Assembly (NCBI GenBank): GCA_000002445.1
Contig: CP000067.1
Coordinates: 1 to 64,000 of the forward strand
Source: Trypanosoma brucei
Lineage: Eukaryota
Direction: 5' to 3'
Length of the DNA: 64,000 bases
This document shows positions 3,121-56,542 of this stretch, piece by piece (within the stretch, counting starts at the first letter, position 1; the number at the start of each line of letters is the position of its first letter). The position numbers were made by a program, and so were the translations under genes. The notes beneath the pieces are model-generated. The model made no database searches. It saw nothing but the letters and a program-made list of their open reading frames with translations, and was not told the DNA's origin.

Positions 3121-3132
3121 TGTATAACAGTA
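3121..3132. repeat. Target-site duplication TGTATAACAGTA (left copy) of RIME #1
   Basis: The identical 12-mer is at 3641..3652. Its reverse complement TACTGTTATACA matches what I recall as the canonical RHS insertion hot-spot 12-mer. Confidence 0.85.
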
Positions 3133-3640
3133 TTTTTTTTTTTTTTTAGAATTTTCTTCGTGCCTTCGTGAGAGTTTCCCCCCACTGGCGCGGCCATCAG
3201 CCATCACCGTAGAGCCCTGAAATGCTATCGGTCTGGCGACTGTGGCAGAGTCTCCCTTTTTCATTCATCCTAATACACACCCTCTATAATTTTTGTTGTA
3301 TTTCCGCATATGAACGGAATACAGCAGATGGGGCGAGAAGCCTCCCACCCCGGACTCTCCAAAGGATGCCAATTAGCAATCCTTTTTTGGAGTTCCACAT
3401 CACCGGACAGCAGCATCTTAGTGCGGATGATACTGCTGATGGCACGCTGGCACGTGCCCAGGGACCGACAAATGAAAAACGGTGTCCCAGCAAGACGCTG
3501 CTGATCCCTGTGCTGTATGATGCCGTAGCCGGAGCACAGCAGTGTTCCCCATGAAAGGAACTCTGCTGGCTCTTGGCTTCCCCCGATGATACGGGGTACT
3601 GGACCCTGGCACCACGTTGAGGTGGCCGGCATCGCCAGGG
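3133..3640 (-). mobile_element. RIME: RIME non-LTR retroposon, full length (about 493 bp body plus 15 nt poly(A) at 3133..3147)
   Basis: The reverse complement of 3562..3640 reads CCCTGGCGATGCCGGCCACCTCAACGTGGTGCCAGGGTCCAGTACCCCGTATCATCGGGGGAAGCCAAGAGCCAGCAG. This is the conserved 5' 79-mer of ingi/RIME-type elements, recalled from memory. A poly(T) run on the plus strand at 3133..3147 is the poly(A) tail. The flanks are a 12 bp direct repeat. Confidence 0.85.
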
Positions 3641-3652
3641 TGTATAACAGTA
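3641..3652. repeat. Target-site duplication TGTATAACAGTA (right copy) of RIME #1
   Basis: Identical to 3121..3132 and directly abuts the RIME 5' end at 3640. Confidence 0.85.
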
Positions 3653-25900: not shown

Positions 25901-27787
25901 AGGGGAATGTAAGTTTCGTTGATTAAACATTTCATGGCGCATCATTACCGAGTTTTTTGTTATGAACCCATAATTAACCATGAGACAGGTTTTTACGACT
26001 CATAATCCCTGCATAAATGCAATGCACTGAAGGAATGTAATTTTATTTATTTTTTATTACTACCATTTTTATTATCAGTATTAATATTCAGGTTTTCATT
26101 CATCACTATTTTATTATTTATATTTTCTTTCCAACATCTGTTTCAAGCAACATGGTCGATTGGAATTAATGTAGACATCAATGGTTAGAGAAACTTTGAT
26201 TTGCTTTGACCGTGCAGATGCGCAAAGTTCAAAAGGTTTCAGAAAGGTGTTGGGGAACTTTAACCATATTTTTTTATTACTGAATTATTTCTCTAAAATG
26301 CTTTTTTTCTTTTGTATTGCACTTACATTCAAAACCATTTGGACAGCGCTTTGAAGGCAGTCAAGTGGCGTATGGAAATATTTGCGTATTGGCGTTTTTT
26401 TAACGTATGAGTGTTACGTTCCTAACGGTGATGGAAAAAAGTAACATATGAATGTGTGTTCAATAATAATAATAATAATTAAATGCCAAGTTCTCTTACT
26501 TTCTGTATCAAATAGTGAGTCTTTTTTCTAATATCATTTTTTCAAATGCGTATCGAGGTTTAGGAGGCACAATGTTGCTTAAAACTCAACTCTCACGAAA
26601 ATGAGACAAATTAAGGGAAGCTTCTATCGCAGCCACCATTTCCATGTGTGCAACAGTAAGCGAGTCATCGTAACAATTTTTTTTTTTGCGCGTGTGAAGT
26701 GTGAAATCCTCATGAGAACTCAAAATTTACCACAATAATACTCATTATGCAAGGTGCTTTGAGTGGGGAAGGCGGCGCAGACTCAAATATCCAAAACAAT
26801 TTATTTTCCCATATGGCGGAACGAACGGATGCTGTAGTGAAACATACACTACAAAGCGAGAAAAGTATATCTCCGGGTGCCGACACTCTCCAACGATGTG
26901 AACACAAAACCCTTCATTTACGAACAGGAGGCTTCAGTTTGTTTATTTGTTTGTTTGTTTTTGAATCCATTCCTCACATCAGCGTCCAACATTAAATACA
27001 GGGAATTCAGAAACTTTATCATGACCATTATTGTTGTGTCTTGTAAGATGATACATATTTTATGATAGGAACTTACTGGTCACCAGCAGTCAACAAAGAA
27101 ATACGAAAGAATACAACAGTGATAAACATATATTACCTTGAAGTCACATGTGTACATTTGCACGGAATTAGCTCAGTGGTGTTTGCGAACTCAGAGAATA
27201 AGGAAAAGCGGCAGTCAGATGAAATGAATAAAATACCAAATTTCGTGCATCAATTAATATATTTGAAAATAGAATCTCATGCTGTATGGTCCTTAGAGGC
27301 ATGAAAATAGATTCAATAACGCTAAGGTGTGACAGTGTTGAGGCATCTGTTAATCAACATGCGTTGAAAGTGGGGGAAATGTCAGTGAATATCTGAGGTA
27401 GCGCCAAACTATTTTTTTTTAATGGCCACAAAATGCTGCAGTAGAGCAGTGTGGAAATAATTTCATTGGATAGAAAAATGTGTGAGGAAAGTTTATTAAA
27501 TTTGTTTGAGATTTATAACTGTTCTACCTGAGTAACTGTGTGCGTGCTTTAGTACAGGAATCCCTTTGCGATAAAGCTTCTGTATCCTTTACAAAGGAAA
27601 CGGTAAGAAGTTACATTAGTTAAAAGAGTAAAACAAATATTTTAATCAAGAACAATATTCAATGTTTTGCTTCAGGACAAAAAAACACTTATTCTGGGAA
27701 AAAAGCGTCTGAGGGAACGTGAAGCAAGGGTTGATAATGTTTTCAGTTTATATGGCTCCCTATGCAATGCAAAGTGAAGTCACATTA

Positions 27788-28255
27788 TAATGGACAACGA
27801 AACTCAACCATTGGGAATGAGGATGGTTGATGGAACGCGTGGTGATGATGTAATGTGGAAGAATGAAGAACTTAATCTTGTCCCTAAAATTGAGGAAGCT
27901 GTTGAGAAGAAACCAGAACGCAGGGAAGAAGTTGAAGCAATGGTTCTAACATCTCAAATGTGGTGATAATAAGCTAAGTTTACCAACGGAAGTAACAAAA
28001 ACATATTCATCCATAGAGAAGAGCTCCGTGTATGGAATGTTGTAAGGAATGGAATTGAATTATGGCGTACACAGCGTGCTTTACCGAGATGTCTTTATTT
28101 TCCACGAGCATACGCTGCCATTGTTGACCCTGGGATTGGTAAATCTCAGAATTTTGGTTTTTTCATCCTTTACAAGTTATTGCATTGCGATGCGGAAGAG
28201 TTGCCTATTGTTGCGTATTTCTGCGGTGTAGCCGCATATGTATTTGAAACCAACT
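27788..28255 (+). pseudogene. RHS: RHS gene fragment (about aa 58-215 of a 49436-type RHS) on the opposite strand to all other RHS copies, truncated at both ends and frameshifted
   Basis: Translation MDNETQPLGMRMVDGTRGDDVMWKNEELNLVPKIEEAVEKKPERREEVEAMVLTSQMW and then, in another frame, ...IFIHREELRVWNVVRNGIELWRTQRALPRCLYFPRAYAAIVDPGIGKSQNFGFFILYKLLHCDAEELPIVAYFCGVAAYVFE. This parallels IIDDGTQPLGMTLVDG...FIRREELRVWNVVRSGIELWRTQRVIPGCLYLPRSYVAIGNPGIGKSQNLGSFILYKLLHYDAEELPVVAYFRGVAAYIFE of the ORF 49436..51463. Confidence 0.75.
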
Positions 28256-34906: not shown

Positions 34907-36946
34907 CTATGCATTGTTACCACCTCTATTGTTAACTCCATTGTTATTGTTACCTCTTACTTGCAATTCAACGTATAGTGCAGTAATGTGGTTACTAAGA
35001 GAAACTGAGAATTGACGCACTTTCTCTCTCCAAAATCTTTCCTCAACCTTATTATTTTGTCCTTCACCTTCGATTGTCCCCTCACAACATTGTGGCTTCG
35101 TAATTTTTTCACTGTCAACCCTTTGGACATATATTATTTCCCATACCATATCATTGGAAAAATTGTCCCAATGTTTGAAGTAACTTCGCAAATACTTCTT
35201 CATCTTAAATAACCCACTGGTGCTGCAGTATTGTTTATCGGAAATTGTGAATTGTAGTCCCACAAAAGTCTTCTGGTTCTCAACAAAAAAAAACGCATCA
35301 ACAACTGGGAAATTTCCTGATTGCGGCTTGCACAAAATCATGTATTGAATTTCAGTTCCAGCTACAATTGGAACATCCTCAGGAACCACAATCGAAGGAC
35401 CAATGAGTCTTGGTTCTTGCAGCACCTGCAGCACACTTTGTGGAATTTGATCCTCAGAAAGTGAGAGGCCCCGTAACTCCTTTGCCAGCTCAATTAGTGC
35501 ATCCTCATGTGACAATACTTCAATGCCACTCTGCTTGAAACGATAAGCAGCAAGGGTACGGTTAGACAGCAGTTCAGATACTAAAGCAGACTTTTCCTGT
35601 ATAAAAGGTTTCAGTCGATCTGAAATAGCTTCCCCCGTGCAAGATGAAAGTGGCTTGCAGCGATACGTATCACACAGGAGAAAATCCTCTTCCTTCACTC
35701 GAACAACCATCACCAACTTGTGTGATGCTTCATGTGTTTCCCAAAAGGCTCGGTTTCGAATAACGGAACGAAAATACTCAGTATCTCCACGTTCAAGTTT
35801 CAAAATAGTATTTTGCATTGCTTGAGCACGCTTTTCGTACGAACGTAAATCAACAATGTGACAAAGCAGTGGACCAACGATACGAATGCGAGCTTGAATT
35901 TCTTGCCATTCTCTTTCAATTTTCTCTTTCGCATCTGAAGGACTCCACTTGTAAGCAGGAGCAATTTTCCCCCACCTCGATATGTGTATGGCTTCCAAAT
36001 CCTTCAATGTGTCACAGTTTATGTAAATATGTGTGGCGCCGTTTTGCTTGGACCATTCATGGAATTGTCTGGCGTCTGGAAAACTCAAAGCAATACCGGA
36101 AAAATCAACAGGTGGTTTCACTGGAGCATGATGGTCCTTGTCCACGACGAATATAAGGTATCCCTTGATATCCTCTGCGCCACATGAATCTCTGACTATA
36201 TGGTCAATATATGTTGAAGCTTGCTCATAATTACTGTAAAACGTAACATATCCTGCTCGACCGCCTTTGGGTTTATGAAACACATACGCCTTACCCCTCA
36301 CAACGTATATGATAATCTGAAGTTGACTCGATTCATAATGCAGTAGTTTGTATAACAGAAAGGGTGCTGTGGAAAACGATTTACCAATACCAGGTGTACC
36401 AATAAGAACATGAAACATCGGGTTGACAGTCACTTCACCCATAAGCCACTTGTTAAGCCGTTCCTCAACCTTATGCCACACCCTCAGTGTTTCCCTGCGG
36501 ATATAAACATCACTTTTAAAAACATACTCCACACCCTTCTTGTGATTGATATCATAATCTTTTTCTTGTGGTTGGAAAGACGTGTATGGCCAACCCACTT
36601 GAGATGTGAGCACAGCAATCTCCAAGTTACCGTGACGAGGAAGAGGTTCGTTCATAGTTTCCAGAGTGTGACTGACATCAACCTCCTCCTTCGTCCACAT
36701 GCGCGGTGGCCTTCCATCGAACACTTTCATTCCAAGTGGCTCTTCATTATAACCCGACATTACATAGCTCCACGTCGCATTATAAATGTAATCGTATAAT
36801 TTCTCTTCGAGAGACTTGCCCTTTCCGGTTTCTGATGGGTTCTCGTTTTCTCGGCTGGCTTGTCTCTTCATTGGGCGGTACGCACCATTCAACCATCCAT
36901 TTAAAATATTCCGAGTATCTCCTACACTACCGCCGTTCTGATTCAT
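34907..36946 (-). CDS. RHS: RHS (retrotransposon hot spot) protein, apparently intact (679 aa); type B N-terminus (MNQNGGS...) joined to a core close to that of the 1682..4715 copy
   Basis: Uninterrupted ORF with the P-loop GTPGIGKSFS followed by an intact, uninserted hot-spot 12-mer (tgtataacag at 36346..36355). The conserved C-terminus ...HITALYVELQVRGNNNNGVNNRGGNNA is shared with the 1682.. copy. Confidence 0.85.
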   Translation of the reverse strand: MNQNGGSVGDTRNILNGWLNGAYRPMKRQASRENENPSETGKGKSLEEKLYDYIYNATWSYVMSGYNEEPLGMKVFDGRPPRMWTKEEVDVSHTLETMNEPLPRHGNLEIAVLTSQVGWPYTSFQPQEKDYDINHKKGVEYVFKSDVYIRRETLRVWHKVEERLNKWLMGEVTVNPMFHVLIGTPGIGKSFSTAPFLLYKLLHYESSQLQIIIYVVRGKAYVFHKPKGGRAGYVTFYSNYEQASTYIDHIVRDSCGAEDIKGYLIFVVDKDHHAPVKPPVDFSGIALSFPDARQFHEWSKQNGATHIYINCDTLKDLEAIHISRWGKIAPAYKWSPSDAKEKIEREWQEIQARIRIVGPLLCHIVDLRSYEKRAQAMQNTILKLERGDTEYFRSVIRNRAFWETHEASHKLVMVVRVKEEDFLLCDTYRCKPLSSCTGEAISDRLKPFIQEKSALVSELLSNRTLAAYRFKQSGIEVLSHEDALIELAKELRGLSLSEDQIPQSVLQVLQEPRLIGPSIVVPEDVPIVAGTEIQYMILCKPQSGNFPVVDAFFFVENQKTFVGLQFTISDKQYCSTSGLFKMKKYLRSYFKHWDNFSNDMVWEIIYVQRVDSEKITKPQCCEGTIEGEGQNNKVEERFWREKVRQFSVSLSNHITALYVELQVRGNNNNGVNNRGGNNA

Positions 36947-38300: not shown

Positions 38301-40556
38301 AACACAAACACAAACAAATAAACAACCAAACATTTTTAAATGTTGCTGTGAAACGGAAATTTAATCACGGAAAATTGTGGGGCGCACACGTAATGGGCAC
38401 CATGAATGCCTCTTTGAATATTCCTCAATGGATTTTCACCAGCATCATCAACTTACTTTTTGTGTAAAAAAATAATAGAAACAAGACAGAACAGAAAAAA
38501 GAAATAAAGGTACAAATGCATTAATAAACCCAACTCCTCAGCAGGAAATCAAGAACAGGAAGTCACGAAAAGCGTATGGCACATATGATTTTCACCTCTC
38601 AGTTACTTAAGGTGGATCGCATGATTTACCCACCTTCTAAGAACACACCCTCCGAGAGGCCCGATTAAAAGAAAAAAAAACGCTATGACGGTTGAAAAGA
38701 CGTTTTTCATAAACCTTCACTTTATACGTGAGGATGCATAAATAAACAGTGATAACGATGAGAATGCTAACGGAAACAATGACGAACCGTGAGGATTCTA
38801 GAAAAAAAACACATACTTTTACATTAAGGAAACTTAATAAACAACAAAATATAAATATTCCCTACACAGAGGTATAGGGGGTGTTCGCCAACTTTGCAAC
38901 GTTGGCCAAAAAGTATTTAAATGTATCGATCATTCGTGTAGTCAATCAAATAAGAAGTAACATGTACTACACGCACAAAAGCACACTTATAAAGCCTACA
39001 AACCCACTTGCCCCCTTTTAGAGAATACCACTCTCTCGTCAGTGATAAGAGAGGTGATATTAAAAGTATTCCCTTTATAATTATTTCTGGTTCCTCAATT
39101 CGTTGCAACATAACATAACATGCAAAGATGTCGCATCAGGCAGCGGGGCCACCAGCAATAGCGTTTGGTTCATCCTGGGTGATCTCCTTAACAATATCCT
39201 TTTCCATCTTCACTTGAAACTGGTTGATTCTATTCCACAACTCTGTAGTATAATCGCCTCTGCCCCCAACTGGTTCGCACTTCTGCCTCTCCTCGATTGG
39301 CTTGCTGTCACTGTACTGTATGTAAATCAGCTCCCATTTCAAGTTTATTGCGAGCTCATCCCATTCACCAAACAATTGTTTCATTGCCTTGATAAACTTA
39401 TCTACCTTCGTTCGTGTCGTGTGATGCGTTGGTGCCACTGTCGTCTGGAGCAGAACAATTGTTGTTGTAATGATCGCTCTTCCTTCTGTATCAACAGCTG
39501 GCTCAGTTACAAAGAAAAAGGCGTCCACAACGGGGAAATTTCCCTGTGCAGGTCGGTAGAAGCACCCGACCTCGATGTCTTGGCCTGTCGTTTCGGGGTA
39601 AATATGACGAAGTGAAGTTGGAACACGTCCCACGGCATTACCACTTGCCAGAACGGATACATTTGAATCCATTTCTTCTCCAACGCGAGGGAGATACCGC
39701 AGGTGCGTCACAATCGTCTGCACAACATTTCCCATCGTGAAGGCATATACGCCCACATTTTCAAATTCATCAGCGGCCTGCTCTTTTTTCCCACGAAAAC
39801 CCTTTCGAAGGTAATTGTCTCGCATACATGCTGTGTCCGCCCACACTCTCAATTTCTGCTCAATATCAATGGAAACAGCTCTGTTTCTGCATTCTTCTCC
39901 ATTCTCAGTTACAACCCGGACCAATTTAGCCAACCTGTATGTAGTCCCGTCCTCGCGCCATTCAACTTGACCATTCAGCACCTGCATATAGTAACCATCA
40001 TCGCCTCTACTGATTTCTGCCAGTGCCTCATTTATTTCTCTAACGCGGCCCTTGTAGCGTTCGTCACCTTCCAGTACGTGGCGGGCAGTGGGCCCACCTT
40101 CTTAATCCATCCTTATATTTTCTGCCATTCATTCTCAAGGTTTATGATGTGAGCTTCGGTGATTTTACTTTCCTCCAACTTCGACAGCCGCCTCCACGCA
40201 ACCGCAGCCTTCAGTTCCACCTCTTCATAGCAATTGATGCAAAGGAACTCGCAACCCCGTGGTTCCTTCCACTCTTTGTAGTTATTTGGATCTGGAGATG
40301 TCAACACAATTACGGGCCACGTTTCCGGCAAGTCTGCGGGTATGGGTTGGTGCCTGTCTTTCGAAAAGTCGTATATAATATAACCAAGAAGCCATTCGTC
40401 AGCCAAGGCATTGACAGCATCCACTCCATCATTTTCTTTTTCATAGAATACAACCCTTCCCGGATGATCGTTTGTCGCCATGAAGAAAATATATGCCCTA
40501 CCCTTCACAAAATAAGCGATAATCCGCAACAGCTCCGAATCGTAATGCAGCAACCC

Positions 40557-40567
40557 TTGGAGCAGGA
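40557..40567. repeat. Target-site duplication TTGGAGCAGGA (left copy) of RIME #2
   Basis: The identical 11-mer is at 41078..41088. Confidence 0.8.
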
Positions 40568-41077
40568 TTTTTTTTTAGAATTTTCTTCGTGCCTTCGTGA
40601 GAGTTTCCCCCCACTGGCGCGGCCATCAGCCATCACCGTAGAGCCCTGAGATGCTATCGGTCTGGCGACTGTGGCAGAGTCTCCCTTTTTTATTCATCCT
40701 AACACACCCTCTATAATTTTTGTTGTATTTCCGCATATGAACGGAATACAGCAGATGGGGCGAGAAGCCTCCCACCCTGGACTCTCCCAAAGATGCCAAT
40801 TGGCAATCCTTTTTTGGAGGTCCACATCACCGGACAGCAGCATCTTAGTGCGGATGATACTGCTGATGGCACGCTGGCACGTGCCCAGGGACCGACAAAT
40901 GAAAAACGGTGTCCCAGCAAGACGCTGCTGATCCCTGTGCTGTATGATGCCGTAGCCGGAGCACAGCAGTGTTCCCCATGAAAGGAACGCTGCTGGCTCT
41001 TGGCTTCCCCCGATGATACGGGGTACTGGACCCTGGCACCACGTTGAGGTGGCCGGCATCGCCAGGGTTGGAGCAGG
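40568..41077 (-). mobile_element. RIME: RIME retroposon, full length (body about 501 bp plus 9 nt poly(A) at 40568..40576)
   Basis: About 97% identical to RIME #1 along its whole length. It ends with the same CCCTGGCGATGCCGGCCACCTCAACGTGG 5' 79-mer (reverse complement at 41049..41077). It is flanked by an 11 bp direct repeat. Confidence 0.85.
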
Positions 41078-41088
41078 AACGAGCCAAC
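41078..41088. repeat. Target-site duplication TTGGAGCAGGA (right copy) of RIME #2
   Basis: Identical to 40557..40567. Confidence 0.8.
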
Positions 41089-43158
41089 ACCAACTGATTT
41101 CCCAATACCTGCAGTGCCGACGAGGACGCAAGGAATCTGTTTTTCGATCAGCCCTGACTCCAGCCACAAATCCAGCCTCTGCTTCACAAGATACCACACT
41201 CTCATTACCTCTCGACGAATGTACACATCCAGGTCAAACACGTAGTCTCCTGGTTTTTCCGCATCCTCTTGAATTACACTTCGCGGAATGCGGAAACGAT
41301 GATATGGCCAACCCTTCTGTGAGGTGAGCACAGCAATCTCTAAATTACCACGTCAAGGCAGTGGGTCGCACAAATCGTAAGGCGTTTTACTGACATTCAC
41401 CTCCTCTTCTGTCCACAGCTCAGGCTCGCCGTCACAATTACCCACCACCTTCAGGCCAAGAGGTAAATCATTGTGACCCGACTCCACATAACCCCACGTC
41501 GCGCTATAAATGGAGTCGTATACTCCTTTCAGTTCGGCACCACCAGCTGTTTGAGCAGCTCCTCCCAATGCTTCATCGAGTGCATTATTCAACATGTTAG
41601 TGACAATAATTCAAGTCTGCTCTCCATTTCTCAGTCCACGAATATTCACCTGTAACCTGGCCTTTACTTCCTCATTTGCTTGTTTCCAGCGCACGAGATT
41701 CAATATTCCCTCATTCTCATAAAAACCATAGACGCTGACAAAACGTTTGTACACTTGATACTCTGTTGTCGCGAATATTCGATTGAGCGCATTAACGTCA
41801 TTAATATACTCTTCACATCGTTGTACAAACACAGATATTGATACATTATTTTCTTCTTTCACATTGTATCTTGTGCCAAAATTACTTCTCAAAAAATCAT
41901 TCAACATCACATTTCCAGGATGTGGCAGACCATTCAGCAAAACTGCTTCAATGCAGCTGAAAAGTCTCCATTGTGGTTGGTTGTTATTCTCCACTCGTTG
42001 CTGCACTGCTGGAGGTTCCGCATCGTTACGCGCAGCCTCCTCACGCTCTCGTCTCCTTCCCTCAATGTCACCCCTTCCTTCAATAGGAACCTGTTGATTC
42101 ATTTCACTCTCTGAATAATAATCTTAACTGAGTGCGTTGTGTTATTTCCTTTCTTTGTAATATAAATAAAGAATTAAGATGAGGGAATTTAAAATGGACA
42201 CACTTCTAAACCAAATCAAATATACAATCAATGAATATTAGGAATTAATATGGCAGGTGGAAACTATTTATTGAAATTAGGATTCAATACAAATCTTATC
42301 ATGTGTTGGGGCGCCACAGCAACTTAAGCACAGATAAGGTATGACAGTATGAATAAACATTTCTGTTGAGAGGAAAACTCAAACAACAATTCCCAGTTAC
42401 TTCACACCATCATTCCAAAAAAAATAATATACTTATATATATGTATGTATGGAAAAGCAAAAAATAAATAAATGTGGCATTGCCATGAAAAAAAAACAGT
42501 TTCACACGTGTGGTCCAAAAGCTGCATCAGCCAATACGATATCTTGACAGCTTGTCATGCAGTCTTGTCTCAAGAAGAAAATAAAACATTCATCTCTGCT
42601 TTCCGTTAATTGATAAATGAGATCCCATGCTGTGTTAACTCACGTCTCCATTCAAATAGTTGACTCAACGTTGTGACGAAGCAGTGACCAAAAACAATCC
42701 AAATGCAATTCCAAATTTCTTCATATTACGCTTTCAGTTTTATTACACATTTCCCCAACCATTCCGAGTACTAACAGGAATAATTTGGTTCTATCCTAAT
42801 GCATGTGCTTTCTACAGCTCTTTCATTTTGTTATGATCCGCACAAAAATTATATATGTGGTTGTTGATTCGTCCTGTCAATCAAAGTAACAATCATAATA
42901 ATTAATTTTCCCCTTTTCTTCATTTTTTCTATTAGCACATGTGCACCTTGGTGAGATCACTTTCACTCATTTGCACTGATTGGTCAACACCATTTAGTTC
43001 GTCATTCAACACACTCCCTTACATGTCCTCTTCTCACCATTTATAACCCACACGAGCAGCATCAAATATAAATTGTGAAGAGGTATGAGATCACAAGAAC
43101 TCGCTCTCATTGAGAAGGTTGGATGCGTCATATATATATATAATCATGTAATCCCTTT

Positions 43159-46047: not shown

Positions 46048-48337
46048 TCACCTTCGCTTTGCTTTCATCGCTCGCCTCCCCTGTGCCTTTTCTGCCTCCT
46101 GAAGATCTACCATCAGATGAGCATTCATTTCGTCCCCAAACGTTACTTGGAATTGTTCAATCATTTCCCAAAATGTTTGAAGTTGTTTCGCCTTCCTGGC
46201 AGGGATAACTTTGTCGTCGTTCGCCTCACATTTTTGCCAATTGGTAATCACACCGCCATTAACTCCATTCATGTATATCATCTCCCAAGCCATGTTACCC
46301 GAAAACGTGTTCCAGTCCGAAAAATATCCTTTAATTCTCTCCGTGAACGCATTCAACTTTGTCGCAGTGGTGGAGTGACAGTCCGACTTGGTCACGTGTA
46401 AAAGGACAAGTGTCTTTGGTTTTGGCGTTTTTTTCGCTTGCCTTCCAGGTGACATCGTGAAGCGCCCCTCAACGAAAAAAAAGCCATCCACCAAGGGTTC
46501 ATAGGCTGTGGCGGGAGTGTAGAGCACCATGTATTCGCAGCGTTCAATTGGGTTCTGCCTGGCTGCTGGTAAGACTTCCCATCCAGTGAGGCACAACTGC
46601 TGAGGAGTCATGCTACTCAGTATACTTTGTGTTCCCCTCAGCTTCTCAGGCGGATGGAGGTGTCTCAAGTTCTTTGCCATCATCTCGAGAACTCGAGGAT
46701 TGAGCACCGCAAACAACGCATGGCTTTCAAATGAAATGAAAGCGGCACTTCTGTTTCTCATCATGAGCTGGGACTCTGCTACTTTTCGCGCAGTAAAGCC
46801 AAGCACCGCCCAAAGTAGCAAGGTCCTTATGTGCCCGGAAAGCTCTTTGCTGCGATATGAATCTCCGGAAACTCCATTTCCACGCGAACGGACTATCTGT
46901 ACCATCTGGTACGACACCTTTTCAGTTTGCCAGTTCATTGATGACCTAAAAAGATCCTCGCAGCCATTTTTATCATTAGCATCGAGGCCTCTTATTTTTT
47001 TTGCCACCGCCTCCATTCGCCCTCCGTGCCCCACAGCGTCGTAAACGGCACGAGGCACCGGGCCGGCCACTGCAATACGCTGCTTTACAGTTTCCCATTC
47101 GTCCTCAAGATCTCCTTTTAACTTTTCTTTTGCTGTGTTGGATACCTTTTTACCTAATGCTACTGATAAATTCTTCCATGCCACAAATGCCTTCATGTCA
47201 CCCACATCATCGTAGTTTATAATAATATGGCGGCTTCCCATGTCCTTTTCCCACTCCTCATAATGTGCCGTATCCGGGGAAGTGAGGACAGTTATACCCC
47301 AACCCAAATGGCACAGCTCATCAGGCGGTATAAGTAGTTCGTTACCGATGTCGACAATGATGTGACCTCTTTTTTTTCTTATTGTTTTTATGAAGGTAAC
47401 GGCGGAATCGGTGCTTCTGTCTTCCTCAACCCTCCCCTCTTCTCCGGGTTTCTTGTTATGTATTAGGTAAGCGATTTTTCCCACGAAATATGCAACAACA
47501 TCAAGCATTCCTTCATTGAAGTGAAGCAGTGAATGAAGCAAAAATGATCCAAGGCCACATGTTTTACCAATACCAGGTGTACCAATAACAATATGTATCG
47601 GTGGTCTCTGTGCTTTTTCCACCCACCTTCCTTGCAGCCCTCGTTGAATTATATACCACACGCGCATAATTTCACGACGGATGTATACATGTTTAAGTTT
47701 TTCCCCGCACCTCTCAGTGTGGCCCAATGCAAACCTGTTGTATGGCCAACCTTTCTCCGAAGTGAGAACAAAAATCTCCAAACCATCAGGCCTCTCCTCA
47801 ATATCTGCATCGACATTCGTAGGATCAGGAGTTACATCCACCTCCTCCTTCGTCCACATGCGCGGTGGTCTTCCATCAAACACTTTCATTCCAAGTGGCT
47901 CCGCATCATAACCCGACATCACATAACTCCATTTTGCATTATAAATGGAATCGTATAATTTCTCTTTGAGAGACTTGCCCTCTCCGGTTTCTGATGGGTT
48001 CTCGTTTTTCCGCTCTCTTGGCGGCTATCACTGCAGCATCCAACATTCCCCTCGCCACGGGACCAACAAATTCCCTTATTTGCGCTGTTGCCCTCTCTTC
48101 CCATTGCTGTATGTCGCTAATCTCATTACGAGGCAGATAAATAACTGCCCTCAGTAATTGAAACTCCTCAAGCCGCTGTATTCTTCCTAGAATCCTGGCA
48201 TCTAAAATAAATCTTTTGTGATTCTTAACAAGCAAAAACATGGCTACATTCTGTGTGTCATACGTGTTTGAGAAGTATTGATCCAAAAAGTCATGCAGTT
48301 TTATTTCATCCAAACTCGCATAATCTTCCAGCAGCAC
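46048..48337 (-). pseudogene. RHS: Chimeric RHS pseudogene: N-terminally truncated type-A leader, a type-B leader segment, then a type-D core, with a frameshift at the junction
   Basis: ORF 47939..48337 ends ...VGPVARGMLDAAVIAAKRAEKRE (type A, cf. 4120..4160). It then switches frame at about 48000 into NENPSETGEGKSLKEKLYDSIYNAKWSYVMSGYDAEPLG (type-B leader, cf. 51310..51370), and continues as ORF 46048..47922 with P-loop IGTPGIGKTCG. Confidence 0.8.
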
Positions 48338-49435: not shown

Positions 49436-51463
49436 TTACCTTCGGCCCGCAGCAGCCACCGCAAGCATTTTGATAACTATGTTATCCTCATACTGCACAT
49501 GGTACTGCTGCACATTGTTCTTCCAGAATCCCTTCACAAACTGGTGACTGCGGTGCTTTGCCTTACCCTGTGTAATTTCACACTTCTGCTCAGACCTCAT
49601 CGCTGTGGATTCGAAGTGCTGAACGTAAATGATTTCCCAGTGAAACATCTCAGTAATTTCCTCCAACTGCTCAACGGTAGCCTCATTCTGGTGACCCCCT
49701 CCCTCCGCACTTGGCAAGAGGGATTGTAACAAATGAATGAATTCGTCGGTTTTTGTGTCATGTCTGCTGGCAACAGTAAACTGCAACAACACAATAGTTT
49801 TCTTTCCTGTGGTTCCTGAAGCCTGTGCAGCCTCCTTGTCATCAACAATAAAGAATGCATCCGCTACGGGGTAGTTGGGAATGCACGGCACATATAATTC
49901 CACCGGAGCCCCCTCCGACTCAGCCCAGTTGATGTCACCTGGCACTGTGTTTGTTCGACCAACTTTGAGGAGGTCATCCCTTACGTGTTGCAAAATGCTT
50001 TTGCGTGTCCTCATGCGTCTGGCCCTTTCATTTGCTGGAAGTTTCGTTATTAAACTTACGAAGCAAGTTAACACTCTGGGGGAACACAAATATTTAATTG
50101 CATTCTCCTCAAAATAAAGCCCGATGGCAGATGCATTCCGCATCATACCAGTTGTCAGTGCCCACTCCTCAGCAATGCCGGAAAACACTACATTCAAAAT
50201 TCTTTTCTTTATAGATTCAGAATGCGCCACGCAGACATACGTGTCAAAGGAGTTTCCTTCTCGAGCTTTGATACGAACGATCTTCACGAGCTTATGTGAT
50301 GCATCATTGTCCCTCCATTCCCCACAGTTGTCCAGTACCTTAGTATATATTCCGTACTTGTTACCTGCTACGATACTCCCCAATTCCCCGTCCACTGCAG
50401 TAAGCTCCTGTCCATACATTACTTCGTCAAACACATAACGAAGTGAAGGTCCGACACGCTCCACACGGTTCTCATACATGTTCCACTTTTCCCTCAACTC
50501 AACATGCGTGGCTTGAGGAAACAGCTTGAGTCCCATACGTGAGAAGAAAGCCCGCATTTCACTCATTTCCCAGCAGTTAACAACAATAAAAGCGCCTTTA
50601 CGTTGCTTTTGCCAGCTGTCAAAATTTCTCAAATTGGGTGAACTGATCAAAATGCTTCCCCATTTTGGAGCCACATCTGCCGGTGGCTGCTCGCCTTTGT
50701 TGACGAAGTCATAAATAATATAACCACGTGTATTAGATGATATAACCTTCATAAACGTTATAGCCGCTTCTTTACTGTACTCCCTAACTCTGCCAACGCC
50801 ACCATTATCCGATTTTTCAAATATATATGCGGCTACACCACGGAAATACGCAACAACAGGCAACTCTTCCGCATCATAATGCAATAACTTGTAGAGGATA
50901 AAAGAACCCAAATTCTGAGATTTGCCAATCCCAGGATTACCAATGGCAACGTATGATCGTGGTAAATAAAGACATCCCGGTATAACACGCTGGGTACGCC
51001 ATAATTCAATTCCACTCCTTACAACATTCCATACGCGGAGCTCCTCTCTGCGAATGAATATGTCACTGTTACTTCCCCGGGCAAAGCCTGTATATGGCCA
51101 ACCCATTTCTGAGGTAAGAACCAACAGCTCAACTCCTTCCGTGCGTTCCGGCTTCTGTTCAAGAGTTTCCTCAATTTTGGGGACAACATTAAGTTCCTCA
51201 TCTTTCCACATCAAACCTTCATTGGGCATTCCATCAACCAACGTCATTCCCAATGGTTGAGTTCCATCGTCGATAATAATATAACTCCATTTCGCATTAT
51301 AGGTGGAATCGTATAATTTCTCTTCGAGAGACTTGCCCTCTCCGGTTTCTGATGGGTTCTCGTTTTCTCGGCTGGCTTGTCTCTTCATTGGGCGGTACGC
51401 ACCATTCAACCATCCATTTAAAACATTCCGAGTATCTCCCACACTACCGCCGTTCTGATTCAT
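49436..51463 (-). CDS. RHS: RHS protein, apparently intact (675 aa); type B N-terminus with a distinct core
   Basis: Uninterrupted ORF with P-loop IGNPGIGKSQNLGSFILYKLLHYDAEE. Its first 50 aa and about 440 bp upstream are nearly identical to the 34907..36946 copy. Confidence 0.85.
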   Translation of the reverse strand: MNQNGGSVGDTRNVLNGWLNGAYRPMKRQASRENENPSETGEGKSLEEKLYDSTYNAKWSYIIIDDGTQPLGMTLVDGMPNEGLMWKDEELNVVPKIEETLEQKPERTEGVELLVLTSEMGWPYTGFARGSNSDIFIRREELRVWNVVRSGIELWRTQRVIPGCLYLPRSYVAIGNPGIGKSQNLGSFILYKLLHYDAEELPVVAYFRGVAAYIFEKSDNGGVGRVREYSKEAAITFMKVISSNTRGYIIYDFVNKGEQPPADVAPKWGSILISSPNLRNFDSWQKQRKGAFIVVNCWEMSEMRAFFSRMGLKLFPQATHVELREKWNMYENRVERVGPSLRYVFDEVMYGQELTAVDGELGSIVAGNKYGIYTKVLDNCGEWRDNDASHKLVKIVRIKAREGNSFDTYVCVAHSESIKKRILNVVFSGIAEEWALTTGMMRNASAIGLYFEENAIKYLCSPRVLTCFVSLITKLPANERARRMRTRKSILQHVRDDLLKVGRTNTVPGDINWAESEGAPVELYVPCIPNYPVADAFFIVDDKEAAQASGTTGKKTIVLLQFTVASRHDTKTDEFIHLLQSLLPSAEGGGHQNEATVEQLEEITEMFHWEIIYVQHFESTAMRSEQKCEITQGKAKHRSHQFVKGFWKNNVQQYHVQYEDNIVIKMLAVAAAGRR

Positions 51464-51905: not shown

Positions 51906-54844
51906 TAAAGGTATTCATGCGCATGGTGAAGGATCTTTACATTAAGAAATAATACAAACAACTATCAGAACTTGCGCATAATCTCACATGAGCCGTCACT
52001 CGGAATGACGTTTCCATTACTTATTAACTTTGCAACAACAATTTTAATACATACTCTCACACTCCTAATCAGTACACAGTGTGCAAATGAAAGTACGAGA
52101 TATCAAAACATATACAATAATAATCGCCGTAAAAAGTAAAACCAATGAAAATAAAATCTTATACATCAAAGAGGAACCTCTCTCACCTGACGAACAAATG
52201 CTGCTCACTTTCTTTATTCTTTAAGTGATCCTGTGTTTTTTTTCTTGCGGCCATGGAACCATGAATACAAAGAACATATGAAGGCATGAAAGGTATTTGT
52301 TTTTGTTTTGGTATTGGAGCACCTTGCCATGCGTCTGATCTTGTGCCTTGGTGAAACTCAAAAGAAACGAAAGGCTCACGGAAGGGAACAAATATATTTG
52401 TGGGAATAACAATCCAATATTAGGCCTCTTTTAAGGAGTGTGCTGAGTGGAATAATGGTGAAAAAGAAGTATTGAAAATGTATGCTATATGGACAAATGC
52501 CTTACAATGTTTTCTCTCTATCTGAAACATATGGAATATATGGAATATATAAGGAACAAGAAACATAGGGAATATATGAAGAATAAGGAAATATATGATA
52601 TATTCTGAAGTGCCGGATGTGCTTGTGCGTGTCTTCGTATGTGTTCTCTGCTTTATATATCACTAAATATTTTACACATTTCATTTTACTTTGCGTATGC
52701 TAATAGCTTGTTTTTCCTTGCATCAATTCATGGAAATATCTATTAGAGAAATAATAATTTACTTTTTCTCTTCCTTTCCCGCTAATGTTTCACCGCCTAT
52801 TTTCATTCCTTATAAATACTGTAAATTTCTTTTGTTACTGTAACTATTTCCAAAAAAAATGTAATGGAGACACTTTAAGCATTACATATCATAATATCTC
52901 TAAACTCCTTCTATGTTATGTTAAGTTACAAATATTTTCATTCCCATTAATTTTATTCAGCAGAACATACAAAACACCCTCAAAAGTCCTTCCTTCCTTT
53001 CTTTTTCTTCAACATCATAATATACCTTGTGGAATATACAAATATATAATAACCATAAATGTGTTATATATCTTCACAACATCAGAAGCTATACAACAGA
53101 ATTGTGTTCCTCAAGAAGCAGTGGTTGTGTTTCCTTTTACTTTCTCTCAGAGTCAAACTAATTAATTAATTACTAATAACATCCTCCAAAGATATTGCTT
53201 CTATTTTCTTGGATCACTCAGCAGCGTAACACCGGAGTATTGAAATAAAGAGTCACAGTTCAAAGAAAATAAAACAGTAAAAAAAATAAACAGAGGCTCG
53301 CACCTTCACAATTGGTTGCATTTGGATATATCAAACGCATTTATACACTTGCATTCCTTGTGTTTCTTTTTTGGGGGAGGGTAAATGCAAAATGCAAAAT
53401 GTATCAAGTTGACGAGTAGAAGAAATACAACACTTGATATAATTTCACTTACATATAAGCTTTCGTTTCCCACTTTATTCTAATTCATAATATTTAGATA
53501 GCAATGTAATGGAGCATTCAGCCATAAACATTTTAACCATAAATATAGTAACTAATGTGTGAATGGTAACCCATGGTGATACATTCCATATGGAACAATA
53601 CCACATTGTTAAATATACGCATGGAATTAAAACTATAGCACTAAATTGAAAATGAAAAATTAGAAGAGAGAAAGATATGAATTATCAAAAGAGGCATATT
53701 CTTCACTAACATGCACTTGTTTCAATACAATCATAATTTCAAATTACTTTAAATGATAAGTGGCCCAATGTCCTGAAACGACACAATAACAATGATTTCA
53801 TTATAACAACTGTAAAATAATGATATGCAATAAAGTAAATAATATAAATAAATAAAAATACAGCAAGCACTGCAGAATATATTTTACTGCTATAACCATT
53901 TGCAAACAAATGAATAGCTTTGCTCATTGGAAGAAAATAATTAAATTCAAACTTCCTATGATTCTGCCAGTGTTGGTGAGCTACGTGTGGGACTCAAAAA
54001 AAACAAAAGTTTATTTTAAATAAATATAAAGAAAAGAAAAACTTCTCATGAAACCATAAGGGTACCCCTGTGAGTTATGTGCTGCTGTAAAACATAGTTA
54101 ACTTCACAACCCTCAAGAAAGAAAGAAATAATAAAAGTAAAATGTAAACAAAAATAAAGTTAAGATATATAATACACTTATGCTTAACTAAATGTAACGT
54201 GTCATACGTAAAGGTGATAAAATAATAATCACAATGTAATGTTATCAATGCTTTCCTTCGCAAACGAAAACTGTCACATCTCAATGTGTTCTTCCAAATT
54301 AATATAAAGGAACCAGCTGTGTTTGTATAATATTCTACAATGTCATTTGGCATTGTCCAATGCTCACTCAAAAAACTCCTTCGTTTTGTTGCGATGTAGC
54401 TGTTGACAGTGTTGTGCTCTTTTTCTTTTTTATTTTTTAACATACAACTATGGGTTTCCGTAATCCTCTCAATATTGCTGCAGTTCCCATCATTAAAAAA
54501 AAAACAAAAGAAATCCATCAAAATAGCGTAACTGGAGTATAAGATGTTGTAGAGAACAATGTATTTATTTTGAGTAATGGAACTCTGTGAGGTCGAAGAC
54601 AATAATCCGAAACGATTGAACCGAAACTTTCATTGCCCCATGCCTGTAAAATAATAATTTAATTGCTCAACGCATATTCTCATCCTGCAGTAAGTAGTTC
54701 AAACAATTTCGTACACACATGAAACACTGGAAGGAAAAGAAAACATATACATTGCATAAACCTTTACTAAATGAAAATACTATTTTTGGTATCGAGTTCA
54801 CCATGTGTTACAGAGCCACATTTCACTAACATGCTAAAGCATAA

Positions 54845-56542
54845 TTAATTCATCATCATATTTCTGATCATCAGCGATAGGGCTTGACATTTGTATGATT
54901 CGACTCCTCCAACATTTCCTTTTACTCTTACAATCTTCACCAACTTGTTCATAACTTCATCGTTCCGCCAGTCAGCCGTGTGTTCAATAATATCATTATA
55001 GCAATATTTATCAGATTTCTTCATAGCTCTCAACGCATCATACACACTTTTCAGATGCCACTCATAACAACCTAAACCAAATATATAACGAGGCAGCGGT
55101 CCAATTAAATTAATGCGTTCCTCCACTATTTTCCACTCATCTTCAATTTCTCTCTTCAATTCGTATCTTCTTCTGTTGGACACCTTTTCTCCTGTATGTA
55201 TTGACAGCTTTTTCCATGCCATAAATGCCTTCATGTCACGCACATCATCGCAGTTCATAATAATTTGGTGGCCTCCCTTATTTGCACTCCACTCATCAAA
55301 ATGGTCACTTTTAGGGAAAGTGAGGAAAGTTACACTCCAAACATCAGAGGGAAGTTGAGTGTATAGTTGCTCCATTGCATACCTTGTGTCCATAACAATG
55401 TGCCCTTTGCTTTCAGATTTCATTTTATTTATGGCAGCAACGGCAGACTCCCAGCGTTCGTATTCATCAACAGTCCCTCTTTCCTCACCCTCTCGGTTGT
55501 ATATCAGGAAGGCAGAATCCTCCAAGAAATATGCAACAACATCAAGCATTCCTTCATTGAAGTGAAGCAGTGAATAAAATAAAAATGATCCAAGGCCACA
55601 TGTTTTACCAATTCCAGACGTGCCAATAATAATATGTATTGGTGGACCCTCAGCTGTTGCTTCCATCCACCATGCTTTCAGACCTCGTTGGATTATATAC
55701 CACACGCGCATAATTTCACGACGGATATATACATGCTTGCAAATTGTCTTGCATCTCTCAGTGTAACCCAATACAAACCTGTTGTATGGCCAACCCTTCT
55801 CCGACGTAAGAACAAAAATCTCCAAACCATTGGATCCTTCCTTTACTCTTGCATCAACATCGGCAGTTTTAGGAGTTATATTCAATTCTGCCTCCGTCCA
55901 TATGCGCTGCGGCCTTCCATCGAATACCTTCATTCCAAGTGGCTCCGCATCATAACCCGACATCACATAACTCCATTTCGCATTGTAAAAAGAATCGTAA
56001 ACATCTCGACAACTTTTGACAGAAACACGCGGCAGAAACCATACTTCTGATTCCGTGACAGCATATTGTACTGCATTCAACCTTCCCCTTGCTACAGGGC
56101 TAATGGAGTTTTTCACCTCTGGAGTTGCACCGTTCACCCAATCGCTGATGGTATAAATTTTTTCCTCTTTAAGGTAGTTTATCCACATTTCTGTTTCAGG
56201 CAGTTTCTCAACAATCCTTTTGTACTCCCTGAACTCATAAAGCCCCTGTATATCCTCAAGAATCTCGGCATCCTTAATATAATCTTCAGGATTCTTAACA
56301 AACGTTTCCATTGACACATTCACTGTGTTATACGTGTTTGAGAAGCATTGATTCAAAAAGTCATGCAGATTCATTTTGGGCAATGTCGCATATTCTTCCA
56401 GCAAAAAATCCCTCACTGTACTGTTCATTTTACAATCAGAAAATCTTTTATATCTCTGCGGCATCTGTGGAGGCTGAGCAGGAGGAGGTGCTACATGTTC
56501 ATCCCGTGGCCTCCTCATGGCTCCTTCAATGTTATTTGGCAC
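54845..56542 (-). CDS. RHS: RHS protein copy, C-terminally truncated (565 aa; stop falls about 250-290 codons before the position where the 46048-type core continues). It is likely a pseudogene or truncated variant.
   Basis: Type-A-like N-terminus MPNNIEGAMRRPRDEHVAPPP..., P-loop IGTSGIGKTCG, and it ends ...LVKIVRVKGNVGGVESYKCQALSLMIRNMMMN* at a TAA. The ancestral upstream ATG (cf. ATGTCAAGAGCAAAT at 4715) reads ATATCAAGAGCCAAT here. Confidence 0.7.
   Translation of the reverse strand: MPNNIEGAMRRPRDEHVAPPPAQPPQMPQRYKRFSDCKMNSTVRDFLLEEYATLPKMNLHDFLNQCFSNTYNTVNVSMETFVKNPEDYIKDAEILEDIQGLYEFREYKRIVEKLPETEMWINYLKEEKIYTISDWVNGATPEVKNSISPVARGRLNAVQYAVTESEVWFLPRVSVKSCRDVYDSFYNAKWSYVMSGYDAEPLGMKVFDGRPQRIWTEAELNITPKTADVDARVKEGSNGLEIFVLTSEKGWPYNRFVLGYTERCKTICKHVYIRREIMRVWYIIQRGLKAWWMEATAEGPPIHIIIGTSGIGKTCGLGSFLFYSLLHFNEGMLDVVAYFLEDSAFLIYNREGEERGTVDEYERWESAVAAINKMKSESKGHIVMDTRYAMEQLYTQLPSDVWSVTFLTFPKSDHFDEWSANKGGHQIIMNCDDVRDMKAFMAWKKLSIHTGEKVSNRRRYELKREIEDEWKIVEERINLIGPLPRYIFGLGCYEWHLKSVYDALRAMKKSDKYCYNDIIEHTADWRNDEVMNKLVKIVRVKGNVGGVESYKCQALSLMIRNMMMN

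What the first reader, a model, noticed from the sequence alone, without database searches (positions are those of the whole stretch)
40557..41088. Second RIME at the homologous RHS codon position but in a diverged target sequence with an identical 11 bp duplication
In the RHS pseudogene 39136..42102 the RIME sits between ...GKSVGVGSFLLQ and GLLHYDSELL.... This is the same codon position as LLLY|KLLHYE in the first copy. Here, though, the duplicated target is TTGGAGCAGGA (rc TCCTGCTCCAA, encoding LLQG) rather than TACTGTTATACA. The two duplicate copies are identical to each other although the gene carries several stops and frameshifts. Either the endonuclease tolerates considerable sequence divergence at this position (context-directed targeting), or gene conversion later homogenised the flanks.
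Basis: partly seen in the sequence, partly recalled or inferred. Interest (0 to 1): 0.6.

Follow-up and report, generated by a model that had tools for sequence, protein, structure and literature searches.

The report
RIME retroposon in RHS hot spot
A 500-bp RIME retroposon sits in the well-known insertion hot spot of a decayed Trypanosoma brucei RHS gene, flanked by an exact 11-bp duplication; this is an ordinary case of a published site preference, because the motif the element's endonuclease is thought to read lies upstream of the duplicated bases and is fully conserved.

Summary
A full-length RIME lies at 40568-41067 on the minus strand: 500 bp, 9-A tail, 98% identical to the RIME at 3133-3640. 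It is flanked by exact 11-nt repeats TTGGAGCAGGA at 40557-40567 and 41068-41078. The host is an RHS pseudogene (Pfam RHS_N and RHSP, three in-frame stops, one frameshift).

Both RIMEs start their duplication after the first base of codon 14, counted from the P-loop G. Only the far edge differs, giving 12 versus 11 nt. The two target 12-mers share 6 of 12 bases. The 22 nt upstream match all 7 positions of the published Tbingi/TbRIME signature AxxxxxxxTxxxGTxGGxTxxx^ in both copies. Only 5 of 127,932 window positions do so.

A T. b. equiperdum sibling of the same RHS subfamily carries an ingi at the same site with a 12-nt duplication, TCCTGCTCCAAA. The diverged target therefore belongs to the subfamily.

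The identical flanks need no gene conversion. The RIME has 1 private substitution in about 490 nt, so P(22 nt unchanged) is 0.63-0.96.

This is the known RHS hot spot and the known relative site specificity of ingi/RIME. The only deviation is a duplication one base short at the 5' junction. Interest is low.

The parts
40568..41067 (-). RIME-B: full-length non-autonomous retroposon, 500 bp. Its 5' end CCCTGGCG... is at 41067. The conserved 79-nt 5' signature region is about 40989-41067. The A9 tail is at 40568-40576. A 121-aa ORF (the ingi N-terminus) lies at 40694-41059.
   Evidence: It is 98.0% identical to RIME-A. Its two halves are 98% and 92-96% identical to the ends of ingi elements in L001 and L002. 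GC is 54%, against 40% for the window.
41068..41078 (-). Upstream (5') copy of the target-site duplication, TCCTGCTCCAA on the element strand.
40557..40567 (-). Downstream (3') copy of the target-site duplication, TCCTGCTCCAA. It is followed by G at 40556. At the corresponding 12th position the sibling copy L002 has an A, which lies inside L002's 12-nt duplication.
41079..41100 (-). The 22 nt upstream of the first-strand nick, AAATCAGTTGGTGTTGGCTCGT. It matches 7 of 7 specified positions of the published Tbingi/TbRIME signature AxxxxxxxTxxxGTxGGxTxxx and encodes K-S-V-G-V-G-S just after the Walker A motif.
   Evidence: signature from PMC3820030; score, and 5 of 127,932 window positions scoring 7/7.
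41095..41118 (-). P-loop codons GTAGIGKS of the RHS pseudogene. The nick falls five codons plus one base downstream of them.
   Evidence: This agrees with 'five codons upstream of the hot spot' in PMC7563717.
41079..42102 (-). 5' half of RHS pseudogene B (DUF7578, RHS_N and the start of RHSP). It contains two in-frame stops.
39136..40556 (-). 3' half of RHS pseudogene B (rest of RHSP plus the subfamily-specific C-terminus). It contains one in-frame stop and a 1-nt deletion frameshift, both private to this copy.
   Evidence: It is 95.4% identical to L006 and 94.8% identical to L001, both T. b. equiperdum.
3121..3652 (-). Comparator: RIME-A (3133-3640, A16 tail) with 12-nt duplications TACTGTTATACA (3121-3132 and 3641-3652 on the plus strand, read there as TGTATAACAGTA). 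The host RHS gene gives an intact 837-aa ORF once the RIME is removed.

Best explanation
This is an ordinary target-primed reverse-transcription insertion of a RIME. RIME is mobilised in trans by the ingi-encoded endonuclease and reverse transcriptase. The insertion is in the canonical hot spot of an RHS gene copy of a subfamily whose codons at the site have diverged.

The endonuclease is thought to recognise a motif that lies mainly upstream of the nick (A-22, T-14, GT-10/-9, GG-7/-6, T-4). In RHS genes that motif is written by the conserved K-S-x-x-V-G-S codons just after the Walker A loop. Subfamilies that differ in the 12 duplicated bases are therefore nicked at the same nucleotide.

Shown here: the first-strand nick position is identical in the two window copies and in three T. 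b. equiperdum relatives. Shown here: the duplicated bases vary (TACTGTTATACA, TCCTGCTCCAA(A), TTTTGCTTCATT).

The second-strand or 5'-joining step landed 11 rather than 12 nt downstream, or lost one base at joining. This is inferred and the two cannot be told apart.

The insertion is young compared with the decay of the host copy. That is why the two 11-mers are still identical. No homogenisation is needed.
For: The element's anatomy and exact 11-nt flanks come. The codon-level alignment of the hot spot in 7 window RHS copies comes.

Both occupied sites score 7/7 upstream, against 5 of 127,932 positions in the window. If the window copy is forced into a 12-nt register the score drops to 2/7. 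The poly(A)-side nick is therefore the canonical one, and the short duplication arises at the 5' side.

Only 13 of the 22 upstream bases are identical between the two targets, yet all 7 signature positions are among them. The hypergeometric probability is about 0.01 by my own arithmetic, C(15,6)/C(22,13).

The sibling L002 has the same subfamily target, an ingi, and a 12-nt TSD TCCTGCTCCAAA. L006 has a RIME with TSD TTTTGCTTCATT in a third subfamily. Non-RHS RIME/ingi junctions in T. b. gambiense and T. b. equiperdum keep all or part of the GTxGG core: GTgGG in L001 and L004, GTtGa in L003, aTtGG in L005.

RIME-B has 1 private substitution in about 490 nt. Its host branch has 34 in 1643 (Fisher p = 0.002). 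RIME-B's closest relative is a RIME in a different RHS subfamily (98.6%), not the ingi ends found at the homologous site (92.7-96.3%).

Literature: the TSD is 12 bp and the conserved upstream motif is taken as the endonuclease recognition site (PMC3820030; PMC2323293). The RHS hot spot lies five codons after the ATP/GTP motif (PMC7563717).
Against: The published signature was derived from element sets in which RHS-resident copies are common, so the 7/7 match is partly circular. The non-RHS junctions seen here match only 2-5 of 7.

Every visible member of this RHS subfamily (window copy, L001, L002, L006) is occupied at this nucleotide. The three intact poly(A) tails are 9, 9 and 10 nt long. 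That would also fit one ancestral insertion that was copied together with the pseudogene.

No empty site of this subfamily was found, so the pre-insertion sequence is inferred and not observed.

The endonuclease's recognition of this motif has not been tested biochemically, as far as the papers read here state. PMC3820030 itself notes that a retrotransposition assay still needs to be developed in trypanosomes.
Confidence: 0.72

Rival explanations
1. One ancestral insertion, probably an ingi with a 12-nt TSD TCCTGCTCCAAA, occurred in the founder of this RHS pseudogene subfamily. The interrupted pseudogene was then copied by segmental duplication. In the window copy the ingi was later replaced by a RIME, through ectopic recombination or conversion using the shared 250-bp ends. 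Position 12 of the TSD then changed in both copies: one A was lost from CCAAA upstream, and A changed to G downstream. That left 11 matching bases.
For: All four visible subfamily members carry a retroelement 3' end at the same nucleotide. The A-tails are 9, 9 and 10 nt in the window copy, L002 and L001, against 6 to about 22 nt elsewhere. L001 and L006 have ingi elements whose 5' flank is not RHS and that lack a TSD, so recombination through these elements does occur. PMC7563717 cites recombination around the retroelement site as a source of RHS pseudogenes.
Against: This needs three extra events: the element swap and two changes at TSD position 12. G at position 12 is also present in L006, the closest 3' half, so G is probably the native target base and not a later mutation. 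The element's 3' ends do not follow host relatedness: L006 is the closest host at 95.4% but its ingi 3' end is only 92.8% identical, while L001 is 94.8% and 96.3%. RIME-B has the RIME-type T one base before the tail, where the L001 and L002 ingis have C. Occupancy of 4 out of 4 is not unusual for a family in which more than half the copies are interrupted.
Confidence: 0.2
2. Gene conversion between the two flanking repeats made them identical after they had diverged.
For: The only support is the contrast between a decayed host gene and perfect 11-mers.
Against: The expected number of changes in 22 nt is 0.04 at the RIME's private rate and 0.46 at the host's, so P(no change) is 0.96 to 0.63 and there is nothing to explain. 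An 11-nt homology 511 nt away is a very poor substrate for conversion (inference from general knowledge of homologous recombination). The same target sequence is seen in an independent genome, in L002.
Confidence: 0.03
3. The duplication is a chance match, or a canonical 12-mer with a mis-set boundary.
For: None. The T-run next to the repeat on the plus strand made this worth checking.
Against: The bases on both sides of each copy differ (T versus A on one side, C versus G on the other), so the repeat cannot be extended. The chance probability is about 4e-7. The 11-nt register, and not a 12-nt one, puts the published signature in phase (7/7 versus 2/7).
Confidence: 0.01

Closest known systems
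RHS (retrotransposon hot spot) gene family hot spot of Trypanosoma brucei (Bringaud et al. 2002, Eukaryot Cell 1:137; could not be read here, summarised in PMC7563717)
   Same: The domain architecture is the same (RHS_N plus the RHSP P-loop domain). The RIME lies five codons after the ATP/GTP-binding motif, splitting the gene into two halves. The copy sits in a cluster of RHS genes and pseudogenes. Insertion at the same relative position is seen in different subfamilies.
   Different: Nothing essential differs. The duplication is 11 nt here rather than the usual 12. This subfamily's target is TCCTGCTCCAA(G/A) instead of TACTGTTATACA.
Relative site specificity of Tbingi/TbRIME, ingi4 subclade (Bringaud et al. 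2004, Mol Biol Evol 21:520; signature quoted in PMC3820030)
   Same: All 7 specified upstream positions of AxxxxxxxTxxxGTxGGxTxxx^ are present, and 2 of the 3 inside the duplication. The element has a poly(A) tail and is a full-length RIME whose two halves equal the ingi ends.
   Different: The TSD is 11 nt and not the conserved 12. Position +2 of the duplication is C rather than T (the first window copy has A there).
L1Tc/NARTc of Trypanosoma cruzi and the ingi1 and ingi6 subclade elements
   Same: Same clade. They share the 77-79-nt 5' hallmark, a 12-bp TSD, a conserved motif upstream of the first-strand nick, and association with RHS genes.
   Different: The upstream signature is different (GAxxAxGaxxxxxtxTATG^A for L1Tc; TTTTxxxxxA^A for ingi6), and so are the species.
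Human L1/Alu endonuclease targeting (TTTT/AA)
   Same: An APE-type endonuclease nicks a short preferred motif. A non-autonomous partner is mobilised in trans. The position of the second-strand nick varies.
   Different: The L1 motif spans the nick and primes on the poly(A) tail. L1 TSD length is highly variable (about 7-20 nt), whereas ingi/RIME keep about 12 nt and read a longer upstream motif.

Membership tests
TbRIME (non-autonomous retroposon, ingi4 subclade) | An element of about 500 bp made of the first ~250 and last ~250 bp of ingi. | tested here: met
   500 bp. Nt 1-247 and 255-500 align to the two ends of 5.25-kb ingi elements in L001 and L002 at 98% and 93-96%.
TbRIME (non-autonomous retroposon, ingi4 subclade) | The conserved 5' 77-79-nt hallmark, starting CCCTGGCG. 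| tested here: met
   The first 79 nt are identical, or differ at 1 position, from RIME-A and L004, and are nearly identical to the ingi copies.
TbRIME (non-autonomous retroposon, ingi4 subclade) | A 3' poly(A) tail. | tested here: met
   A9 at 40568-40576.
TbRIME (non-autonomous retroposon, ingi4 subclade) | A 12-bp target-site duplication. | tested here: not met
   The duplication is exactly 11 nt and cannot be extended on either side. The other complete elements examined have 12 nt: RIME-A, L002, L003 and the L006 RIME. L004 is 11 or 12 because of an ambiguous A. This is a one-base deviation at the 5' junction. It does not argue against RIME identity.
TbRIME (non-autonomous retroposon, ingi4 subclade) | Preceded by the ingi4 upstream signature AxxxxxxxTxxxGTxGGxTxxx^xTxTxxTxxxxx. 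| tested here: met
   7 of 7 upstream and 2 of 3 within the duplication. The background rate for 7/7 is 5 in 127,932 positions.
RHS protein family (host gene) | The Pfam RHS_N (PF20445) and RHSP P-loop (PF07999) domains. | tested here: met
   On the reconstructed empty-site translation, RHSP scores 289.5 bits and RHS_N 114.7 bits. The C-terminal ORF gives RHSP 118.7 bits, and the N-terminal ORF gives DUF7578 as in other window RHS copies.
RHS protein family (host gene) | A retroelement inserted at the family's hot spot, five codons after the Walker A motif. | tested here: met
   The nick lies after base 1 of codon 14 from the P-loop G. This is identical in the window copy at 3692 and in L002 and L006.
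RHS subfamily assignment (RHS1-RHS6, defined by the C-terminal region) | C-terminal region matching a named subfamily. | not testable with these tools
   The only database relatives are unnamed T. b. equiperdum fragments. No named RHS1-6 reference sequence was retrievable.

The most novel reading that the evidence does not exclude
The second-strand cut of ingi/RIME may not be set by a fixed 12-nt ruler and may instead follow local sequence. In two sibling targets that differ only at position 12, the 5' edge of the duplication falls at the same A|G step: CCAAA|GG gives 12 nt in L002, and CCAA|GGG gives 11 nt in the window copy. If this held generally, TSD length could be predicted from the target sequence. 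A second reading that is also not excluded is that this whole RHS pseudogene subfamily descends from one already-interrupted founder, and that its resident element was later swapped between ingi and RIME.
Probability: 0.15. Interest if true: 0.3.

Novelty: already known. Interest (0 to 1): 0.12.

Why it matters
It matters little. The locus is a clean textbook illustration that ingi/RIME target choice is set by a motif upstream of the nick and not by the duplicated bases. In RHS genes that motif is held in place by selection on the protein residues next to the Walker A loop, which explains a 'hot spot' that persists across diverged subfamilies. The one-base-short duplication, together with a 12-nt sibling, gives a small natural experiment on how the second-strand or 5' junction is positioned. 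The pattern that occupied sites have GTxGG while the five empty sites in this window all lack the G at -10 is a testable hint about which signature bases matter most.

Tried and rejected
They returned only 6 proteins in total, all fragments from T. b. equiperdum or T. b. gambiense. No intact member of this RHS subfamily was found, and so no empty site.

2. Exact-protein look-ups of four window ORFs found nothing on record: the C-terminal ORF of copy B, an intact RHS, and the RIME-A and RIME-B internal ORFs. The source strain could not be named, and a larger set of RIME junctions could not be collected.

3. The two primary papers could not be opened: Bringaud 2002 (Eukaryot Cell, PMC118050) and Bringaud 2004 (Mol Biol Evol). 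Their content is used only through later papers that quote them and, where marked, from my own memory.

4. An Rfam scan of 40000-41600 gave only a sub-threshold miRNA hit (20 bits against a gathering score of 83), which is noise.

5. A search for ingi coding sequence in the window found only the two RIMEs' ingi-derived 5' parts. There is no full ingi here.

6. The mis-set-boundary idea and a 12-nt register for this copy were rejected.

7. The bacterial, viral and E. coli collections were not used because the sequence is trypanosomal.

Full report
**What is there**

Reading 40300-41400 and comparing within the window shows a 500-bp element on the minus strand at 40568-41067. On its own strand it begins CCCTGGCGATGCCGGCCACC and ends in nine A. 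It is 98.0% identical over its whole length to a second copy whose blastn hit is 3139-3640 and whose full extent, with an A16 tail, is 3133-3640.

The two halves of the element align to the two ends of 5.25-kb ingi elements fetched from Trypanosoma brucei equiperdum. That is the definition of RIME. Its GC content is 54%, against 40% for the window.

Directly abutting both ends is TTGGAGCAGGA, at 40557-40567 and 41068-41078. This 11-mer occurs nowhere else in the 64 kb.

On the element strand the repeat is TCCTGCTCCAA. The upstream copy is preceded by T and followed by C, the first base of the RIME. The downstream copy is preceded by the last A of the tail and followed by G. The repeat is therefore exactly 11 nt and the boundary is not ambiguous. 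The chance of an 11/11 match at fixed junctions is about 4e-7.

**The host**

The window is an RHS cluster from the T. brucei group. Seven copies carry the P-loop motif, all on the minus strand, and there is one fragment on the plus strand.

Removing the RIME and one repeat copy from 39136-42102 gives a sequence with DUF7578, RHS_N and RHSP domains. It also has three in-frame stops and one 1-nt deletion frameshift. The stop after WQKI and the frameshift are absent from the closest relatives, so they are private to this copy.

The other occupied copy (1685-4715) becomes an intact 837-aa ORF once its RIME is removed.

**Position of the insertion**

I aligned the hot spot codon by codon in all seven copies. 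In both occupied copies the duplication starts after the first base of codon 14, counted from the first G of GxxGxGKS:
- Copy A: C|TA CTG TTA TAC A|AA
- Copy B: T|TC CTG CTC CAA| GGG

The poly(A)-side junction marks the first-strand nick in target-primed reverse transcription. It is at the identical nucleotide in both copies. The 5' junction differs by one base, giving 12 versus 11 nt.

This is the 'five codons after the ATP/GTP motif' hot spot described for the family (PMC7563717).

**Why a diverged target is hit at the same place**

PMC3820030 quotes the signature that precedes Tbingi/TbRIME as 5'-AxxxxxxxTxxxGTxGGxTxxx^xTxTxxTxxxxx-3'. The arrow marks the first-strand cleavage, and the 12 following bases are the duplication.

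Scored against it, both occupied window sites match 7 of 7 upstream positions and 2 of 3 inside the duplication. Only 5 of 127,932 positions in the window (both strands) are 7/7 upstream, and two of those are the two RIME sites.

Between the two targets only 6 of 12 duplicated bases and 13 of 22 upstream bases are identical. All seven signature positions are among the 13. The hypergeometric probability is about 0.01 by my own arithmetic, and coding constraint is a confounder.

If copy B is forced into a 12-nt register the score collapses to 2/7. The canonical nick is therefore the poly(A)-side one, and the missing base belongs to the 5' junction.

In protein terms the signature is written by the K-S-x-x-V-G-S codons. 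Selection on residues next to the Walker A loop keeps the nuclease motif in place. That last step is inference.

**Relatives from other genomes**

The three allowed protein searches returned only fragments, but their loci were informative.

- **L002** (T. b. equiperdum) holds a copy of the same RHS subfamily. It is 86% identical to copy B in the 5' half and 82% in the 3' half. It has an ingi at the same nucleotide, flanked by a 12-nt duplication TCCTGCTCCAAA.
- **L001 and L006** hold 3' halves that are 94.8% and 95.4% identical to the window copy. Each has an ingi 3' end at the same nucleotide. Their ingi 5' flanks are not RHS, so they are recombinant and have no duplication.
- L006 shares with the window copy the G at position 12 (CCAAGGG), where L001 and L002 have A.
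- **L006 also holds a second RHS copy** of another subfamily, with a RIME at the same codon position and the duplication TTTTGCTTCATT. The upstream signature there is 7/7. The same 12-mer is an empty site in the window, at 47532-47543.

The duplicated bases at this hot spot are therefore TACTGTTATACA, TCCTGCTCCAA(A) and TTTTGCTTCATT, with an invariant upstream GTxGGxT. The diverged target is a property of the subfamily and not an artefact of this copy.

Non-RHS RIME/ingi junctions keep all or part of the GTxGG core: GTgGG in L001 (T. b. equiperdum) and L004 (T. b. gambiense), GTtGa in L003, and aTtGG in L005 (both T. b. gambiense). Their overall scores are lower, at 3-5 of 7. The L006 ingi junction, whose 5' flank is rearranged, scores 2 of 7.

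**Identical repeats in a decayed gene**

Against a consensus of six RIME and ingi-end sequences, RIME-B has one private substitution in about 490 nt. On a three-way alignment with L006 and L001, the window copy's 3' half has 34 private substitutions in 1643 nt, or 2.07%. The difference gives Fisher p = 0.002, although the two 'private' counts use different reference sets.

The expected number of changes in the 22 nt of the two repeats is 0.04 at the RIME's rate and 0.46 at the host's. The probability of none is 0.96 or 0.63 respectively. Perfect repeats are what one expects, and gene conversion is not needed.

The data suggest that the RIME entered a copy that was already diverging and possibly already dead.

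**The one-base-short duplication**

Papers of the field state that the TSD of this clade is conserved at 12 bp (PMC3820030; PMC2323293).

In the small sample here, four elements have 12 nt: RIME-A, L002, L003 and the L006 RIME. L004 is 11 or 12, with an ambiguous A. Copy B is 11.

With a target TCCTGCTCCAAG, a 12-nt stagger would give ...CCAAG|CCCTGG. The observed junction is ...CCAA|CCCTGG. Either the second nick fell one base short or one base was lost at 5' joining, and I cannot tell which.

In L002 (CCAAA|GG) and in the window copy (CCAA|GGG) the edge falls at the same A|G step. This is a single pair and is only a lead.

**Rival: one ancestral insertion**

All four visible members of the subfamily are occupied at this nucleotide, and three tails are 9, 9 and 10 A. 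That would fit a founder insertion copied along with the pseudogene, followed by an ingi-to-RIME swap.

Several points weigh against it:
- It needs three extra events.
- G at position 12 is shared with L006, so it looks like the native target base.
- Similarity of the element 3' ends does not follow host similarity.
- RIME-B is closest to a RIME in another subfamily (98.6%).

I give this rival 0.2.

**Comparison with what is known, and verdict**

The locus meets every tested criterion for a TbRIME except the exact 12-nt duplication. It also meets every tested criterion for an RHS hot-spot insertion. Both phenomena are published: the hot spot at one relative position across RHS subfamilies, and the site preference carried by a motif upstream of the duplication.

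Novelty: already known. Interest: low (0.12).

The source strain could not be identified, because four exact-protein look-ups found nothing on record.

Noticed in passing
window 36349-36382, 47532-47565, 50890-50923, 55573-55606, 61005-61038 (minus strand; the 34-nt target equivalents of the five empty RHS hot spots): All five empty RHS sites in the window lack the G at -10 of the signature. They read cTtGG, tTgGG or acaGc where the motif has GTxGG, and score 3-6 of 7 upstream. All four occupied RHS sites examined (two in the window, L002 and L006) score 7/7. Fisher p = 0.008 counting copies, but only 0.10 counting distinct sequences.
   Followed up: partly
window 47532-47543 (minus strand) and L006 14009-14020 / 14520-14531: The 12-mer TTTTGCTTCATT is an empty hot spot in the window RHS copy at 46048-47922. 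The same 12-mer is the duplication flanking a RIME in a related RHS copy in T. b. equiperdum. In that copy the upstream codon is GTT (V), where the window copy has CTT (L).
   Followed up: partly
window 1685-4715 (minus strand): The RHS copy holding RIME-A is an uninterrupted 837-aa ORF once the RIME and one repeat are removed. RIME-A has only 2 private substitutions and a 16-A tail. This looks like a very recent knock-out of a functional gene.
   Followed up: partly
window 52598-64000: There is a tandem array of RHS-containing units of about 5.43 kb, 97% identical to each other (54845-56542 and 60277-61974 are near-identical 565-aa ORFs). A third unit starts at 63461 and runs off the window.
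   Followed up: partly
window 18596-22941 (plus strand): Two adjacent ORFs of 519 and 918 aa are made of leucine-rich repeats, resembling the LRRP/ESAG8-like genes that accompany RHS clusters. They may be one gene split by a stop.
   Followed up: no
window 27691-28245 (plus strand): An isolated RHS N-terminal fragment lies on the opposite strand to all other copies. It is 31.5% identical to residues 187-382 of copy A.
   Followed up: no
L006 9395-9430; L001 765-815; L006 4107-4167: The ingi in L006 has lost its poly(A) tail and part of the downstream repeat (GAAGAAAATT|TCTGCTCCAAGGG). The ingi elements in L001 and L006 have non-RHS DNA at their 5' ends and no duplication. Both point to recombination through resident elements.
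   Followed up: partly
window 40694-41059 and 3270-3632 (minus strand): Each RIME keeps a 120-121-aa ORF that starts at element nt 9 (MPATSTWCQGPVPRIIGG...). This is the N-terminus of the ingi ORF. In copy A the RHS frame reads straight into it, and in copy B the 11-nt duplication puts the read-through in another frame, PWRCRPPQRG....
   Followed up: no
window 20054 (+), 29113 (-), 51233 (-): These are the three other positions in the window that match 7/7 of the upstream signature. All are unoccupied, and none has the T-rich pattern in the following 12 nt.
   Followed up: no
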